A program made the translations under genes and the position numbers. Under the pieces are notes generated by a model. It saw nothing but the letters and a program-made list of their open reading frames with translations, was not told where the DNA came from and did not search any database. A stretch of DNA of 64,000 nt from Candidatus Poribacteria bacterium. Lineage in GTDB: Bacteria > Poribacteria > WGA-4E > WGA-3G. The stretch is from NCBI GenBank assembly GCA_965215265.1, contig OZ244048.1, positions 608,001-672,000 on the forward strand, written 5' to 3'. How positions within the stretch are numbered: position 1 is the stretch's first letter; every line of letters begins with the position of its first letter. Of the stretch, positions 12,241-17,727 are shown in pieces.

Positions 12241-14049
12241 TTAAGAAATTAAGGGGTTTTTCACCTTTTGTCTCGAATCCGGTGCGGTTGGAATGCAGGT
12301 CGCAATCTGATATGCGTATCCGTCGCGTTTCTGGATTTTGCGAAGTTGTTTGATATTGCCACCGACGCGATCGTCTCCGTCCCACGATTTTTTTACACGC
12401 AGTTTTTGAGGTTTTCCTTCAGATGTTTTATCAAACGAGTTGATATGTCCCACAACTTTCCCTTTGTGTGTGAGCATTTCGACCATATCCAGTTTTTGAA
12501 AACCGCCCGCGTGTTCAACACGCGTATAAGGTCGTTTGAATCCGGGCGCGGTCTGCTTTGTTTGGCAATTGCCTAAATCTCTGCGATGCCCGTATCCTAC
12601 TGCATGGATACCTAGCACAGAAAGCGGCATGTTTGGCAGTTTGACAACCCCTGCGACACACGCTGCATCATAGTAGTGTGTTTTTGGCAACCCCGCTTGT
12701 GAACGATGATATTTCGTTTTTCCACCGGTGCCACAGAAGACTTCAAGCCCCGTCGCTTTTAGCGTCTCTACAATCTTCCAACGAATCGTGTTGACTGCGG
12801 CAGCATCCTTTAGCGGTTTTTTGGCAGCTGCTGATGCTTTTTTCACACGTTCCGCAAAATCTTTACCATGTTCCTCTTCATTTATCTCATCAGGGTGTAG
12901 GTTACCTTTTTTGGTATTACACGGGCCACATGACAATGTCAGGTTATCCACACGGTTTGTACCTCCTTTCGCTTTCGGGATAATATGCTCTATTTCGAGA
13001 GGCACGTTCTTTTCCTTGCAATAATAACATTTCCGACCGAACTTCTCAAGTAGGTATTCCCGTATTTCATATCCTTGAAGTTTACCCTGTTGGTATTCCT
13101 CTCCCGATATTTTAGAGTTATCCATCAGTTGCATATCAAACTTCACGTGTTCAACTGCTAGCTTTTTGATAGGATAAAGCTTTGAAAGCCTGTTCACCCA
13201 TGTCGCGATATTATAGATACGTGACATCAAGGATGGTGCTACCCAACCATTATCGGGGTTCTCTTCTTTTTCGATAAAAGAAAAATATAATTGCGGTTCT
13301 TCACGGCGGTTGCGCTTTTGGGCGTTGCTATATTCACGTTTTAAGACACGCCGCCACCTTTTCTTTACAGAATGCTTTTTCGGGCTATAGGTGTACACCT
13401 TTTTTGGATAACGCTTTTTATACTGCTTATGTGCCTCGTTATTGCTATTATAGCGATAATATTTACCTCCTTTTTCATAGTAAATATCGCCAGTACGCAT
13501 GCGTTTCCCGTTGGCGTAATAGAGCCGTGTCTTCTCTCTATGTTTTGCAGGCGAAGGGCGTAACCGCGTCCACTCGTAACGCTTATCTTTCAGCATGGCA
13601 TCGCTGACACGATGGAATGTGTTTTCCGTTTTCCGGGTATTCTTGACTTTTTCATATATCCACTGCCCGTTTACAAGGCGAGGACTCTGACGAGAACGGT
13701 TATCAAATCGGGGGGCACGGTGACGACAGTTCCGAGTCCGCCTACTCCGACGATGCCCGCTTCTATCCGACAACGCTTTCTTAATGCTTTTCCGGTGATG
13801 CAACTCAAAAAAAGCAACGACGGTGTTCTCTGAATCTGTAATCGCCATGCCAGTGCATTTTGAGCCAGGGTCAATTGAGAGGGTATAGTCGCCTGTTTGT
13901 GACTCAGGCACCTCAAGTTTCAAGATAATGGTGAATGGATAACGTTTGTAGACCGCAGCCTTCTCCTCGCGAAGTAAACGCCTCGCAACAGCAGGATGGC
14001 ACGGTTCTAATACGCGTTTCTTTGTATCTAATACAGGAACTTTTGACAT
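12241..14049 (-). CDS. iscB: CRISPR-associated IscB (RRXRR/RuvC/HNH RNA-guided endonuclease) with a large REC-position insertion
   Basis: PLMP-like N-terminus (VPVLD..LEPCHPAVARRLL..YPFTIIL); RuvC-I SIDPGSK (D60); Arg-rich bridge helix RRSRRTR..RFDNR; RuvC-II VEHVKFD (E300); HNH CYYC..EIEHIIPKAKGGTNRVDNLTLSCGPCN (H355); RuvC-III THYYDA (H458/D461). Confidence 0.93.
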   Translation of the reverse strand: MSKVPVLDTKKRVLEPCHPAVARRLLREEKAAVYKRYPFTIILKLEVPESQTGDYTLSIDPGSKCTGMAITDSENTVVAFFELHHRKSIKKALSDRSGHRRSRRTRNCRHRAPRFDNRSRQSPRLVNGQWIYEKVKNTRKTENTFHRVSDAMLKDKRYEWTRLRPSPAKHREKTRLYYANGKRMRTGDIYYEKGGKYYRYNSNNEAHKQYKKRYPKKVYTYSPKKHSVKKRWRRVLKREYSNAQKRNRREEPQLYFSFIEKEENPDNGWVAPSLMSRIYNIATWVNRLSKLYPIKKLAVEHVKFDMQLMDNSKISGEEYQQGKLQGYEIREYLLEKFGRKCYYCKEKNVPLEIEHIIPKAKGGTNRVDNLTLSCGPCNTKKGNLHPDEINEEEHGKDFAERVKKASAAAKKPLKDAAAVNTIRWKIVETLKATGLEVFCGTGGKTKYHRSQAGLPKTHYYDAACVAGVVKLPNMPLSVLGIHAVGYGHRRDLGNCQTKQTAPGFKRPYTRVEHAGGFQKLDMVEMLTHKGKVVGHINSFDKTSEGKPQKLRVKKSWDGDDRVGGNIKQLRKIQKRDGYAYQIATCIPTAPDSRQKVKNPLIS

Positions 14050-14055
14050 AATGTC

Positions 14056-14256
14056 CTCTACTTTCGCAAGTAGGTAATGTAAGCCTCGATAATGTTAGTA
14101 TCGCTTTTGGGTCAAGGTTGACTGCGTATTGTACAGCTGTTTACAGAGCCTCCACAGAGCCTCAGACTGGCTTATGTATCCAAGGGTGTGATAACGAAAC
14201 TAACGTAGTTAAAAACTAAATCTTGATTACACTGTAGCCTACTTTTGTGTCGCAAC
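14056..14256 (-). ncRNA. tracrRNA-like omegaRNA (HEARO scaffold with 5' anti-repeat)
   Basis: Minus strand carries HEARO-like motifs CTACGTT (14202-14208), CACACCCTTGGA..GCCAGTCTGAGGCTCTG and AACATTATCGAGG (14084-14096). Pairable stems: GTTAGTTTCG/CGATACTAAC, CCTTGGA/TCTGAGG, TAAGCC/GGCTTA. Its 5' part (14225-14256) is complementary to the CRISPR repeat. Confidence 0.85.
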
Positions 14257-14260
14257 TTTT

Positions 14261-14304
14261 GCCGTCAACCTCCCAATAAAAATACATTATTGGGGGTCGA
14301 CTGC
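14261..14304 (-). other. Hairpin GTCGAC...GTTGAC between array and anti-repeat (possible relic omegaRNA 5' stem / IS200-IS605 end)
   Basis: Minus strand reads gcaGTCGACCCCCAATAA-tgtatt-TTTATTGGGAGGTTGACggc. Confidence 0.55.
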
Positions 14305-14350
14305 AAACTCTTCACGCTGGAGCTATACGCTCACTGCGTTCTCACATAGC

Positions 14351-16177
14351 GTTGCAACCTAAGCAAGCTACAGCGTAAACTCAAAATATGCTACAATACT
14401 AATATCAATTAAGAAGTTGCAACCTAAGCAAGCTACAGCGTAAACGCGTTAAGAGCGTTCGGATTCGTTGTCAAACAAATGTTGCAACCTAAGCAAGCTA
14501 CAGCGTAAACCAGGCAGCATATAACAAGTTCGCACTGTTATCAGATAGTTGCAACCTAAGCAAGCTACAGCGTAAACGAAGCCCTTTTCATACTAACAGA
14601 TGAAAGCAAACGGGTTGCAACCTAAGCAAGCTACAGCGTAAACGTATTCTATGATATGCCAACCGTGGATGCGGTTTGTGTTGCAACCTAAGCAAGCTAC
14701 AGCGTAAACTGCTACGAGGTTTTTCATATTGAAAGCATGACGCAGGTTGCAACCTAAGCAAGCTACAGCGTAAACTAAACCGAATGCTATGACTACTAAC
14801 GTCATGCCAGCGTTGCAACCTAAGCAAGCTACAGCGTAAACTACGTACGATCCACTGTGCATACGTCTGCCCAGGGATCGTTGCAACCTAAGCAAGCTAC
14901 AGCGTAAACGAGGGTTACCTTTTCTGAAATCATTTCATCCCCCCAATGGTTGCAACCTAAGCAAGCTACAGCGTAAACTGAAGCCCTTTTCATACTAACA
15001 GATGAAAGCAAACGGTTGCAACCTAAGCAAGCTACAGCGTAAACAGTAACCCAATCAGCCAGCTGCAGCACACACTGCAGCGTTGCAACCTAAGCAAGCT
15101 ACAGCGTAAACTATTACACAAGCGCGTTGGGAGAGCAAACTGAAAGAGTTGCAACCTAAGCAAGCTACAGCGTAAACTTGATTGAGTATCTCAACTTCAT
15201 TCGTTGGCCATACAGTTGCAACCTAAGCAAGCTACAGCGTAAACACAGAAGCGTCGCCTGATGAAATCCGTAAGGTCCAAAGTTGCAACCTAAGCAAGCT
15301 ACAGCGTAAACCGCGTCCTCGAAAGGATCCACGGTGAATCTGCTCTGGTTGCAACCTAAGCAAGCTACAGCGTAAACTGCTCTCTTTCTGCTCTTATAGC
15401 ATCGACTGTGTCTGTGTTGCAACCTAAGCAAGCTACAGCGTAAACTTAGATATGCAAATGAAAGCTGGCATGCTTGATTCTAAGTTGCAACCTAAGCAAG
15501 CTACAGCGTAAACTTTACGATTTTGAGAACTGTCGGCTGGTATCATGAACGTTGCAACCTAAGCAAGCTACAGCGTAAACCTCGCTACGTCAACCCCGAC
15601 GGCACGCAATGTCTCTGGTTGCAACCTAAGCAAGCTACAGCGTAAACCTTGCAAGGATATTCTCATTAAATTCACTTATTGGAGTTGCAACCTAAGCAAG
15701 CTACAGCGTAAACATGTAGGATATGAGATTGCCTGCTTCGTGTGCCTCGTTGCAACCTAAGCAAGCTACAGCGTAAACTACTTCAATGTTTCGATCGGTT
15801 CGTATCCTGCGGCCTGTTGCAACCTAAGCAAGCTACAGCGTAAACATCGGAAAGGGGGATACGCTGAAGTTGACAGAACACGTTGCAACCTAAGCAAGCT
15901 ACAGCGTAAACATGAAAAAGATTTTTCATCTCAACCGTCCTTTTGAAAGTTGCAACCTAAGCAAGCTACAGCGTAAACTTACTGTAGTATCCTTCGATTT
16001 CCGCAACTTCTGCCGTTGCAACCTAAGCAAGCTACAGCGTAAACTCTTTTGACTTTACCGTATCCTTGTGTCCGTTTTTTAGTTGCAACCTAAGCAAGCT
16101 ACAGCGTAAACGCATTACGCCCAACCCACACAAGCAACGATTCTGACGCTGTAACATAAGCAGGCTACCACGTAAAC
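14351..16177 (-). CRISPR. CRISPR array: 28 repeats (27 identical, 1 degenerate at 16148-16177), 27 spacers of 35-39 nt
   Basis: 30-bp repeat GTTGCAACCTAAGCAAGCTACAGCGTAAAC on + (GTTTACGCTGTAGCTTGCTTAGGTTGCAAC as transcribed); strand assigned from the promoter at 16180-16208 and the G:U-compatible anti-repeat. Confidence 0.98.
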
Positions 16178-16179
16178 AT

Positions 16180-16208
16180 ATTATATCTTAACTTGCAAAA
16201 AAAGTCAA
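16180..16208 (-). promoter_or_regulatory. sigma70 promoter driving the CRISPR array toward the tracr-like RNA and iscB
   Basis: Minus-strand TTGACT (16203-16208)-N17-TATAAT (16180-16185); overlapped by inverted repeat TTAACTTG...CAAGTTAA (16188-16213). Confidence 0.8.
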
Positions 16209-16555: not shown

Positions 16556-16633
16556 ATGAAAAAGAATTTCACTACCATTCGGCTCTGGGATGTCAACACA
16601 GGCGAACCCCTCAAAACTCTCATGTCTGTCTAA
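16556..16633 (+). pseudogene. WD40-repeat gene remnant
   Basis: MKKNFTTIRLWDVNTGEPLKTLMSV*: a single WD40 fragment (TIRLWDVNTG..LKTL) ending at the Rpn stop codon. Confidence 0.55.
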
Positions 16634-17727
16634 GTGTGCAAGGCTTGTAGGAACGCTTCAAAACTGGGTGTCTCAACGGCGATGAGATGCAGCTGCTTGA
16701 GCCGCACCAGGTCTGGTATGGCTTCAAGGTGCGGTTGAGTCGTCTGCACGTCGCTCTGCGGGAACCGTGCGGTGAGCACCGTGATGACGTTTTCTATCGC
16801 ATTCCGGCGTGCACCTTGTTCAATGCCTTGCTCAATGCCTTGTTTGAGTCCTTGTTGCACCAGGACTTCTGCCATTGTCTCTGCCATCTGTTTTACCTCC
16901 ATCTTATCTTCTGCGAGTTGCTCCACTAATGCGACTAAGCCACTTTGTTCTGATAGCGGCCGACGATGCAAGATGAGTAGCAGGAAATAGACTATCGCCT
17001 CACGCCGCTGTTCGGCACCAACCGTATCAAACTCATCAAGGTGTGCTATCGCCGTGCGTAACGCATCCCGTATCTCCGCCTCGTCTGCTCTCTCTTTTTG
17101 CAGCACCGTCAAAAGCCACCCGAACGGATGATGCGTTTGAGTCAGTGTGGCGACATCGGTTTGCTTCACGCTCAAAAACAGCGTCTCAAAGGCAGGAACG
17201 AACCGGGCGAGTTCAGCAGGGATGTCCATCAGTGCCTCAAGTGTCAGCGGGGTTTTCCACTGCTGCTCGCCGGTATAAAACACAATCGGCAGTATCGGGG
17301 GCAACCGCCGCGCCGGTTTGGGCACCTTGTCGTGTTCCCATTGCCTGCGATGTGCGTCCCAAATCAGCATCATATAAAACAGCACCCGAAACCCCATCGT
17401 CGCATCCACCGTCGATTGATGTTCGACGAGCAGATAGATGAGCAGCGCCTCGGTGGCTGTCTCGGTTCTAAACGGGACGCGGAACACGCTATCCGCTTCC
17501 TGCTCCCGCAGCACTTCCGGCAGCAGGCTTCTCGGGAGTGGAACGAGTTGGCTAAAATCTATGCGTTCTGCGATGTCAGCGGCGACGATTTCTAGCACAC
17601 CCCGGACGTTTTCGCCGTTTTGTAGCAAGCGCCGCACACTTCTGTCGGCGAAGTGTTCAACGCGTCCATCAAGCAGCGCGCGGATATGCTGCATCTGCGT
17701 ATCCACGGCTTTGGTTTCTTGCGTCAT
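16630..17727 (-). CDS. Rpn family recombination-promoting nuclease / YhgA-like putative transposase
   Basis: EADSVF..IYLLVEHQSTVDATMGFRVLFY, LPPILPIVFYTGEQQW, C-terminal QGLKQGIEQGIEQG repeats. Confidence 0.9.
   Translation of the reverse strand: MTQETKAVDTQMQHIRALLDGRVEHFADRSVRRLLQNGENVRGVLEIVAADIAERIDFSQLVPLPRSLLPEVLREQEADSVFRVPFRTETATEALLIYLLVEHQSTVDATMGFRVLFYMMLIWDAHRRQWEHDKVPKPARRLPPILPIVFYTGEQQWKTPLTLEALMDIPAELARFVPAFETLFLSVKQTDVATLTQTHHPFGWLLTVLQKERADEAEIRDALRTAIAHLDEFDTVGAEQRREAIVYFLLLILHRRPLSEQSGLVALVEQLAEDKMEVKQMAETMAEVLVQQGLKQGIEQGIEQGARRNAIENVITVLTARFPQSDVQTTQPHLEAIPDLVRLKQLHLIAVETPSFEAFLQALHT

What the first reader, a model, noticed from the sequence alone, without database searches (positions are those of the whole stretch)
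14225..14256. Anti-repeat whose substitutions are G:U-compatible in one orientation only
Minus strand 5'-GUUGCGAC-ACAA-AAGUAGGCUACAGUGUAAUC-3' pairs with the minus-strand repeat 5'-GUUUACGCUGUAGCUUGCUU-AG-GUUGCAAC-3'. This gives a 20-position helix with 3 G:U pairs and 1 U-U mismatch, a 2x4 internal loop, and an 8-bp helix with 1 G:U. Four of the five point differences are wobble pairs if both RNAs are minus-strand, but would be A-C mismatches on the plus strand. That indicates selection on an RNA duplex rather than a decayed inverted repeat. The anti-repeat sits just 5' of 'AAGATTTAG..CTACGTT', where an ordinary omegaRNA has the 3' strand of its first (guide-adaptor) stem, so the crRNA repeat appears to supply the 5' strand of that stem (inference).
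Basis: partly seen in the sequence, partly recalled or inferred. Interest (0 to 1): 0.88.

Follow-up and report, generated by a model that had tools for sequence, protein, structure and literature searches.

The report
CRISPR-linked IscB tracr-like anti-repeat
The flagged 32 bases are a real anti-repeat at the front of an IscB guide-RNA scaffold that pairs with the repeats of a neighbouring CRISPR array, so this is one more natural example of the already described CRISPR-associated IscB systems that sit between transposon nucleases and Cas9.

Summary
On the minus strand, 14225-14256 pairs with the 30-nt repeat of a 28-repeat CRISPR array (14351-16177). The pairing is 20 positions (3 G:U, 1 U-U), a 2x4 loop and an 8-bp helix (1 G:U), at -37.3 kcal/mol against -22.1 for the plus strands. 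A G:U-tolerant pattern finds this one non-trivial site (0.06 expected).

The anti-repeat leads into a HEARO/omegaRNA-like scaffold (Rfam 75.6 bits, below the 83-bit cut-off) and a 602-aa IscB gene. Eleven related loci in Candidatus Poribacteria MAGs share this layout, and repeat and anti-repeat covary. In the formal 9-sequence count, 10 of 27 duplex pairs changed on both sides.

The covariance model places the anti-repeat's 3' end on the 3' strand of HEARO stem P1. Sister loci with one repeat form the same stem in cis.

The kind is already described: CRISPR-associated IscB (Altae-Tran 2021, as cited; DelIscB 2025). I rate this a new member.

Not settled:
- No strand-specific RNA data were available.
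- No RNase III domain was found in this genome or in 25 relatives, so the maturation route is unknown.
- No protospacer was found.

Side leads are a spacer shared with a co-resident type I/III array and a ~170-aa insert at the REC position.

The parts
16180..16208 (-). Sigma-70-like promoter site (TTGACT, 17 nt, TATAAT; 11 of 12) just upstream of the first, degenerate repeat. It is the likely start of the pre-crRNA.
   Evidence: 2 sites in the region against 2.6 expected, so the scan alone is not significant; sequence context. Promoter-like sites also precede the distal repeats of L037 and L038.
14351..16177 (-). CRISPR array of 28 repeats of 30 nt. 27 are identical and the distal one (16148-16177) is degenerate (73% over the 37-nt family unit). 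There are 27 spacers; the 26 measured are 35-39 nt.
   Evidence: With up to 3 mismatches the repeat occurs nowhere else in the 4.83-Mb genome.
14257..14350 (-). Conserved 94-nt linker between the last repeat and the anti-repeat. It contains a long hairpin (14259-14306) whose core the HEARO model aligns to its first inner hairpin.
   Evidence: Hairpin: 15 pairs scored, 3 with changes on both sides, 85.8% of cells paired. Covariance-model alignment.
14225..14256 (-). Anti-repeat. 14249-14256 pairs with repeat 23-30, 14245-14248 is the unpaired loop side, and 14225-14244 pairs with repeat 1-20.
14074..14224 (-). omegaRNA/HEARO-like scaffold (pseudoknot strand, CUACGUU stem, inner hairpins, 3' tail) continuous with the anti-repeat, so it acts as a tracrRNA-like body.
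   Evidence: Rfam RF02033 match 14074-14301, 75.6 bits (gathering score 83), E 1.6e-14, model 1-211. It is the only such match in the genome.
14050..14073 (-). Short hairpin and AGGA ribosome-binding site in front of the IscB start codon.
   Evidence: Read directly from the sequence.
12241..14049 (-). IscB gene, 602 aa. It has a PLMP-type N-terminus, RuvC, an arginine-rich bridge helix, an insert of about 170 aa at the REC position, an HNH domain and a C-terminal domain.
   Evidence: Pfam RRXRR 9.2e-57 and HNH 3.3e-12. PDB sequence hits to TbaIscB (9.7e-36), OgeuIscB (1.5e-22) and IsrB. Insert mapped by alignment.

Best explanation
The locus is a CRISPR-associated IscB system, and 14225-14256 is the anti-repeat at the 5' end of its omegaRNA-derived tracrRNA-like RNA.

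Shown by the sequence analysis:
- The minus strand carries, in order, a promoter-like site, a 28-repeat array, a conserved linker hairpin, the anti-repeat, the HEARO-like scaffold and the IscB gene.
- The repeat and anti-repeat can form a 20+8 position duplex.
- This duplex covaries across related loci.
- It sits where a canonical omegaRNA has stem P1.

Inferred:
- The array is transcribed on the minus strand.
- Each spacer-repeat unit pairs through its repeat with the anti-repeat. The last unit can do this in cis and the others in trans. This rebuilds P1, with the spacer where the omegaRNA guide lies.
- IscB loaded with the two-part RNA cleaves DNA that matches the spacer next to a target-adjacent motif.
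- The conserved U2.U mismatch and the frequent G7.U wobble are probably recognition or processing features.
- How the transcript is cut is unknown. RNase III, the usual enzyme for Cas9 systems, was not found in this lineage.
For: - Anatomy: array, HEARO-like scaffold and IscB domains, all on the minus strand.
- Pairing: -37.3 against -22.1 kcal/mol. It is kept with full-length RNAs, in trans and in cis.
- Not chance.
- Conservation: all 12 array-bearing loci examined have an anti-repeat between the linker hairpin and the pseudoknot strand. The gene-strand duplex is the more stable one in 11 of 12, L033 being the exception.
- Covariation by position: position 3 is U-A or C-G. Position 4 is U-A, A-U or C-G. 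Position 5 is A-U, U.G, U-A, C-G or G-C. Position 6 is C-G or A-U. Position 27 is C-G or A-U.
- Formal count on 9 sequences: lower helix, 8 of 19 pairs changed on both sides and 91.6% of cells paired; upper helix, 2 of 8. Overall 13 pairs against a shuffled 5.7 (0 of 500) and 2-5 when slid.
- Homology of position: HEARO P1 3' strand aligns to the anti-repeat's 3' end. Single-repeat cis forms exist in L025 and L030. An unrelated metagenomic IscB locus (L077) has 5 repeats that start with the P1 5' strand and a matching P1 3' strand before the pseudoknot.
- No Cas1 or Cas2 lies in the window; both occur only at two other loci.
- Literature: repeat and anti-repeat in a CRISPR-associated IscB ncRNA with demonstrated cleavage (PMC12660989, passages); IscB loci associated with CRISPR arrays (PMC10734217, passages).
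Against: - No strand-specific RNA evidence was obtainable, so minus-strand transcription and processing are inferred.
- The HEARO match is below Rfam's gathering score (75.6 against 83).
- G:U against A.C asymmetry across loci is modest (8 against 4 columns), and one locus (L033) scores better on the opposite strand.
- The 9 aligned sequences are relatives, and the structure was derived from them, so both controls overstate.
- Trans pairing of internal units cannot be told from cis pairing of the last unit alone.
- No RNase III domain was found, so the classical maturation route is unsupported.
- No protospacer was found, so neither target nor motif is known.
Confidence: 0.85

Rival explanations
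1. Cis-only omegaRNA. Only the last spacer-repeat unit, folded back on the anti-repeat in one transcript, guides IscB. The other 26 spacers would be passengers from repeat duplication or foreign adaptation and would not be used.
For: The cis fold of 14074-14415 forms the same duplex. Sister loci work with one repeat. The DelIscB authors state that it is unknown whether the ncRNA is split into two RNAs (PMC12660989, discussion passage). No RNase III was found.
Against: 27 of 28 repeats are kept identical over 1.8 kb, and arrays of 4-26 repeats are kept in 11 related loci. Spacers 17 and 23 are the same protospacer offset by one base, and one spacer recurs in another array, which points to real acquisition. 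A contig of run X7 carries a different 33-nt spacer between two repeats.
Confidence: 0.1
2. The array functionally belongs to the co-resident type I/III machinery, and its position next to IscB and the anti-repeat is incidental.
For: It has the same 30-nt repeat length and 36-nt spacer mode as array A, and one shared spacer.
Against: The repeat sequence is unrelated to arrays A and B. In 12 of 12 array-bearing loci the array is upstream of IscB on the same strand, and the anti-repeat tracks the local repeat.
Confidence: 0.03
3. A decayed inverted copy of a repeat, for example a remnant of an array rearrangement, with no RNA function.
For: It differs from a perfect complement at 5 of 28 positions.
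Against: Compensatory changes occur across loci. The U2.U mismatch is kept in 11 of 12 loci and the position next to the pseudoknot strand is fixed. Four of the five differences are G:U on the gene strand.
Confidence: 0.02

Closest known systems
DelIscB and the CRISPR-associated IscBs of Altae-Tran et al. 2021 (seen only as cited in PMC12660989 and PMC10734217, passages read; the 2021 paper is not held)
   Same: An IscB with an omegaRNA-like ncRNA upstream that contains spacers, repeats and an anti-repeat. There are no adaptation genes in the locus. The repeat:anti-repeat hairpin lies at the guide-proximal end of the scaffold.
   Different: DelIscB is 457 aa; this protein is 602 aa with an insert of about 170 aa at the REC position. 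Here the duplex is 20+8 positions and the array has 28 repeats. I could not compare sequences or see the list of the 2021 loci (supplements closed), so I cannot say whether this Poribacteria clade is already in that set.
Canonical IscB omegaRNA / Rfam HEARO (e.g. the Ktedonobacter locus L041, 134 bits; OgeuIscB structures 7UTN/7XHT)
   Same: The scaffold from the pseudoknot strand to the 3' tail aligns over the full model. The guide lies 5' of stem P1. The RNA runs into the IscB 5' UTR.
   Different: P1 is about 8 bp and closed in cis in the canonical RNA. Here its 5' strand is the CRISPR repeat, and it is extended to 28 paired positions. In all loci but the single-repeat ones it is present in many copies.
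Type II CRISPR-Cas crRNA:tracrRNA, especially compact II-D Cas9d (PMC9755519, passages)
   Same: A spacer-repeat crRNA pairs through its repeat with the 5' anti-repeat of a structured trans RNA. The effector has RuvC and HNH domains. Cas9d loci also often lack adaptation genes.
   Different: The effector keeps the IscB PLMP-type N-terminus. The trans RNA keeps the whole omegaRNA scaffold. RNase III was not found in the host.
[quoted passage not shown]
   Same: [quoted passage not shown]
   Different: Its segment at the REC position is short in the alignment seen. No tree with TbaIscB was built here, so the relation of the Poribacteria clade to the Cas9 lineage is open.

Membership tests
CRISPR-associated IscB (OMEGA IscB with CRISPR array) | IscB-type effector: PLMP-type N-terminus, split RuvC, arginine-rich bridge helix, HNH | tested here: met
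   PF14239 RRXRR 9.2e-57 (residues 4-141) and HNH families 1.7e-12 to 9.2e-06. Residues 3-149 and 266-466 align to TbaIscB, including its PLMP segment; IsrB aligns to residues 2-122. D60, E300, H355, H458 and D461 are invariant in the 12-sequence alignment; reading them as catalytic residues is from recall.
CRISPR-associated IscB (OMEGA IscB with CRISPR array) | omegaRNA/HEARO-type scaffold directly upstream on the gene strand | tested here: met
   RF02033, full model 1-211, E 1.6e-14, 75.6 bits. This is below the curated 83 bits, partly because the P1 5' strand is not where the model expects it.
CRISPR-associated IscB (OMEGA IscB with CRISPR array) | Adjacent CRISPR array whose repeat is complementary to the 5' end of the ncRNA (anti-repeat) | tested here: met
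CRISPR-associated IscB (OMEGA IscB with CRISPR array) | RNA-guided, motif-dependent DNA cleavage | not testable with these tools
   Needs biochemistry. No protospacer was found to infer a motif.
Type II CRISPR-Cas (Cas9, incl. II-D) | Effector without the PLMP domain and with a REC lobe | tested here: not met
   The PLMP-type N-terminus is present. An insert of about 170 aa lies at the REC position, but its fold is unknown because the AlphaFold2 model is below pLDDT 50 there. That Cas9 lacks PLMP is taken from recall and from PMC10734217 (passage on IscB).
Type II CRISPR-Cas (Cas9, incl. II-D) | cas1-cas2 adaptation genes in the operon (most subtypes) | tested here: not met
   Cas1 and Cas2 matches occur only at C1:522-524 kb and C1:1468-1469 kb, and none in the window at 608-672 kb.
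Type II CRISPR-Cas (Cas9, incl. II-D) | RNase III-assisted crRNA:tracrRNA maturation | tested here: inconclusive
   PF14622: 0 of 26 genomes of the order, including this one. PF00636: 0 of 1. TIGR02191: only a 23.9-bit match to a dsRNA-binding domain. Controls matched in 8-9 of 14 genomes. A divergent enzyme could have been missed.
Rfam HEARO (RF02033) | Score at or above the curated gathering threshold | tested here: not met
   75.6 against 83 bits. Related loci score 44-76 bits and the canonical Ktedonobacter locus 134 bits.

The most novel reading that the evidence does not exclude
The poribacterial CRISPR-IscB clade may be a free-standing 'proto-type II' immune module with three unusual properties.

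(i) It obtains spacers from the co-resident type I/III Cas4-Cas1-Cas2 module. Its array has the donor's geometry (30-nt repeat, about 36-nt spacers), but IscB reads it from the strand opposite to the one on which array A, by its GAAAC repeat end, would be read. The donor's 5' PAM would then fall exactly where IscB needs its 3' target-adjacent motif.

(ii) It matures crRNA and tracr-like RNA without RNase III.

(iii) It can collapse back to a single-guide omegaRNA, as in the sister clade.

The support is thin. There is one shared 37-nt spacer with identical boundaries, matching length distributions, the absence of RNase III hits and the tree. No spacer sharing was found in two related genomes.
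Probability: 0.15. Interest if true: 0.75.

Novelty: new member of a known kind. Interest (0 to 1): 0.45.

Why it matters
CRISPR-associated IscBs are the few natural systems in which a one-piece transposon guide RNA has become a repeat-bearing crRNA plus a tracr-like RNA. That split is the step assumed for the origin of Cas9 systems.

This locus and its 11 relatives form a compact comparative series:
- 0, 1, 2, 4 and up to 28 repeats;
- REC-position inserts from about 23 to about 170 aa;
- anti-repeats with and without an inserted pair of hairpins.

In this series the pairing rules can be read directly from covariation.

It also raises a concrete question that the DelIscB authors left open: how, and whether, the RNA is split. 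Here the question arises in a host lineage where no RNase III was found.

In practical terms, the clade offers small nucleases with natural multi-spacer arrays.

Tried and rejected
RNA evidence. No RNA holder was listed. The runs that hold the stretch have no library type on record. The four runs laid are contigs, which cannot show strand, ends or level. Parts of the array without cover in X2, X6 and X7 are not interpreted.

Structure of the protein. An AlphaFold2 model from a 12-sequence alignment gave mean pLDDT 54.7, and under 50 over most of residues 88-272, which include the insert. No fold search was run, because a low-confidence model gives meaningless matches.

Targets. A 31-base part of the shared spacer gave 0 matches in viral contigs. 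The whole array gave no match in the phage collection at E 0.01. Within the own genome, only spacer 16 gave a full-length match outside the array.

Automatic anchoring of the anti-repeat by best local pairing mis-registered 5 of 12 loci. I replaced it with anchoring on the linker hairpin and the pseudoknot motif. L040 remained one base out of register there, and I read it instead.

The MAFFT alignment of the whole 12-locus ncRNA (A1) was not in register at the anti-repeat and was not used for counting. The count used A2. A2 holds 7 of the 12 array-bearing loci plus L025 and L027. It leaves out L040, L062, L037, L036 and L038 (long linker or insertion in the anti-repeat), and also L030 and L032. 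The U2.U column was not scored as a pair.

'Single-repeat loci are ancestral intermediates' was considered and set aside. In the tree the window is sister to the reduced clade and all 10 other rows have arrays, so one loss is simpler than two gains of homologous repeats and inserts. The root is by outgroup and midpoint only.

I looked for a separate promoter for the tracr-like RNA and for a terminator between array and scaffold. The scan found none.

Spacer sharing with other arrays was tested in two related genomes and not found.

Supplementary files of the papers were not opened. The list of CRISPR-associated IscB loci in the 2021 paper's supplements could show whether this clade is already catalogued.

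Literature searches for prior description: 'Poribacteria' + 'IscB' gave 0 papers, and 'CasIscB' gave 1 paper.

Full report
WHAT IS THERE

On the minus strand the window holds, in order:
- a sigma-70-like site at 16208-16180 (TTGACT, 17 nt, TATAAT);
- a CRISPR array of 28 repeats of 30 nt at 16177-14351. 27 repeats are identical and the distal one is degenerate. The spacers are 35-39 nt;
- a 94-nt linker with a long hairpin;
- the flagged stretch, 14256-14225;
- a HEARO/omegaRNA-like scaffold. The Rfam RF02033 match spans 14301-14074, with the full model, 75.6 bits against a gathering score of 83, and E 1.6e-14;
- a 602-aa ORF at 14049-12241 with the RRXRR (9.2e-57) and HNH families.

The best solved-structure relatives of the ORF are IscB proteins: TbaIscB at 9.7e-36 and OgeuIscB at 1.5e-22. 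IsrB aligns to the N-terminal 122 residues. The genome is one contig of 4.83 Mb. It holds this repeat and this RNA family only here.

THE OBSERVATION

- Repeat 1-20 pairs with anti-repeat 13-32, with G:U at positions 7, 15 and 17 and a U.U at position 2.
- Repeat 21-22 faces four unpaired bases.
- Repeat 23-30 pairs with anti-repeat 1-8, with one G:U.
- The two minus-strand RNAs cofold at -37.3 kcal/mol and their plus-strand complements at -22.1.

Chance controls:
- A G:U-tolerant pattern for the partner of repeat 1-20 finds only this site apart from the repeats' own complementary strand. That is 28 matches, 27 of them trivial, against 0.06 expected.
- In an energy scan of both strands, the site ranks first outside the array at -38.1. 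The background has mean -13.4, sd 4.0 and best -32.5 over 30,994 windows.
- With a full spacer-repeat unit and the full scaffold, the same duplex forms in trans. In the natural transcript the last repeat forms it in cis around the linker hairpin.

RELATIVES

A scan of one genome per species found 47 loci encoding relatives. The closest are all Candidatus Poribacteria MAGs. A search of 61 related genomes found the protein in 7, including this one.

After merging duplicates, 11 further loci have a CRISPR array of 4-26 repeats directly upstream of the gene on its strand. All share the same order: array, conserved linker hairpin, anti-repeat, scaffold. In all 12 loci the local repeat pairs with the local anti-repeat. 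The gene-strand duplex is the more stable one in 11 of 12, the exception being L033.

COVARIATION

Registered by hand on the linker hairpin and the pseudoknot motif, the pairs change together:
- position 3: U-A or C-G;
- position 4: U-A, A-U or C-G;
- position 5: A-U, U.G, U-A, C-G or G-C;
- position 6: C-G or A-U;
- position 7: G.U, G-C or, once, A.C;
- position 27: C-G or A-U.

G1-C and the U2.U mismatch are kept in 11 of 12 loci.

The formal count used 9 sequences: 7 array loci without large insertions, plus L025 and L027. It left out L030, L032, L036, L037, L038, L040 and L062. Results:

| Measure | Value |
| --- | --- |
| Cells paired | 88.7% |
| Pairs changed on both sides, observed | 13 |
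| Same, shuffled mean | 5.7 (0 of 500 shuffles as high) |
| Same, partners slid | 2-5 |
| Lower helix, pairs changed on both sides | 8 of 19 |
| Upper helix | 2 of 8 |
| Linker hairpin | 3 of 15 |

The sequences are related, and the structure was read from them, so these controls overstate. Even so, the pattern of distinct pair types is what a maintained RNA helix gives.

The finder's argument from wobble direction is correct for the window (4 G:U, 0 A.C). It is weaker across loci: 21 against 5 cells, or 8 against 4 columns.

WHERE THE ANTI-REPEAT SITS IN THE omegaRNA

In the canonical Ktedonobacter locus (134 bits), HEARO stem P1 (model positions 1-8 with 49-56) closes around two small hairpins and is followed at once by the pseudoknot strand.

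In the window, L026 and L034, the model aligns positions 49-56 to the 3' end of the anti-repeat with high posterior probability. It aligns its first inner hairpin to the core of the linker hairpin. The bases it is forced to take as the P1 5' strand do not pair. The true partner is the 5' end of the repeat. That end directly follows the spacer, just as the P1 5' strand follows the guide.

Two further observations agree:
- The sister loci L025 and L030 have a single repeat-like unit, and L027 has two diverged ones. These fold on the anti-repeat in cis like an ordinary, though long, P1.
- An unrelated metagenomic IscB locus, L077, has five 30-nt repeats that begin with a P1 5' strand, and a matching 3' strand just before the pseudoknot strand. 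It was the only one of 80 metagenomic IscB loci with an array.

The finder's inference is therefore supported.

DIRECTION OF EVOLUTION WITHIN THE CLADE

In a maximum-likelihood tree of 21 proteins, the 16 poribacterial sequences form one clade (100/100). The window is sister (96/97) to a group with 0-4 repeats and no insert. The other 10 sequences all have arrays.

The window's insert shares its first and last parts with the inserts of the other array-bearing groups. One loss is therefore simpler than two gains. I read the single-repeat loci as secondary reductions rather than ancestors. They still show that the same stem works in cis.

MECHANISM

Shown: the parts, their order and strand, the pairing potential, its covariation and its position relative to the omegaRNA.

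Inferred:
- transcription from the distal promoter-like site;
- pairing of each spacer-repeat unit with the anti-repeat to rebuild P1;
- loading on IscB;
- cleavage of DNA matching the spacer next to a motif.

Unknown: how the RNAs are cut. RNase III was not found:
- PF14622: 0 of 26 genomes of the order, including this one;
- PF00636: 0 of 1;
- TIGR02191: only a 23.9-bit match to the dsRNA-binding domain of a 175-aa ORF.

The controls matched in 8-9 of 14 well-known genomes. A divergent enzyme cannot be excluded.

COMPARISON WITH WHAT IS KNOWN

CRISPR-associated IscBs were reported in 2021. I could not read that paper. A review states that some IscB loci are associated with CRISPR arrays and that their crRNA hairpins resemble the omegaRNA (PMC10734217, passages).

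The DelIscB paper describes an ncRNA with spacers, repeats and an anti-repeat, together with working cleavage. It says that whether the ncRNA is processed into crRNA and tracrRNA is unknown (PMC12660989, passages).

[quoted passage not shown] The window's insert lies between RFDNR and WVAPSL.

So the kind is known. What is new here is the clade and its host phylum: no paper in the library holds both 'Poribacteria' and 'IscB'. Also new are the 20+8 duplex, the size of the array and the comparative series.

VERDICT

It is a new member of a known kind. Interest is moderate.

Noticed in passing
window 15045-15081; own genome C1:530608-530644: Spacer 16 of the IscB array is 36 of 37 identical, with the same boundaries, to a spacer of a 170-repeat array elsewhere in the genome. 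That array lies next to Cas10/Csm, Cas8-like, Cas7, Cas3, Cas4, Cas1 and Cas2 genes. Both arrays have 30-nt repeats and a 36-nt spacer mode. On the genome's plus strand the spacer has the same orientation in both, whereas IscB reads the minus strand. No sharing was found in two related genomes.
   Followed up: partly
own genome and 25 relatives (G000-G046): No RNase III catalytic domain was found with PF14622 (0 of 26), PF00636 (0 of 1) or TIGR02191 (only a dsRNA-binding-domain match in a 175-aa ORF at C1:2768-3295). Control genomes matched in 8-9 of 14.
   Followed up: partly
window 14578-14613 and 14979-15014: Spacers 23 and 17 are the same sequence shifted by one base. This looks like two separate acquisitions from one protospacer rather than a duplication of a repeat-spacer unit.
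   Followed up: no
window 14062-14385, run X7: In one run with no library type on record, summed word depth is 63,325 and 151,541 over 14062-14223, 15,313 over 14224-14304 and 5,215 over 14305-14385, against 42.8 over the start of the IscB gene. The contigs there are 57-84 nt and several end in sequencing-adapter letters. The same run has a contig with a different 33-nt spacer between two repeats. Contig depth is not a measure of expression, so I draw no conclusion.
   Followed up: no
L062 3669-3757, L037, L036, L038 (anti-repeat regions): In four related loci the anti-repeat is interrupted by about 50 nt that form two hairpins of differing sequence. The repeat would then pair in three segments: positions 1-7 plus 9-10, 14-18 and 23-30.
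   Followed up: partly
window 12241-14049, residues about 120-268 of the protein: [quoted passage not shown] It is absent in the Ktedonobacter IscB, about 23 aa in the reduced clade, about 35 aa in L038 and L040, about 85 aa in the L034 group, and about 165-170 aa in the L026 group and the window. The window's middle part is unlike the others. Its fold was not predictable.
   Followed up: partly
L025 and L030 (same contig, 28 kb apart), L033 (same MAG): The reduced, 1-4-repeat forms occur three times in one MAG. L033's ORF is cut to 393 aa and L030's linker hairpin is partly deleted.
   Followed up: no
window 16148-16177; distal ends of the arrays in L034, L036, L037, L062: The degenerate repeats lie at the promoter-distal... 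that is, at the end far from IscB where transcription would enter, not at the IscB-proximal end next to the conserved linker. If degenerate means oldest, new spacers would enter next to the linker.
   Followed up: no
L077 405-670: An unrelated metagenomic IscB (about 48% identity) has five 30-nt repeats with 31-32-nt spacers and a short anti-repeat that is the P1 3' strand. It is a second, independent-looking CRISPR-IscB layout.
   Followed up: partly
window 16630-17727 (-) and L025 267-343: A YhgA-like (Transposase_31) gene lies just beyond the array's promoter side. A group II intron domain match (70.2 bits) lies 3.4 kb upstream of the L025 IscB.
   Followed up: no
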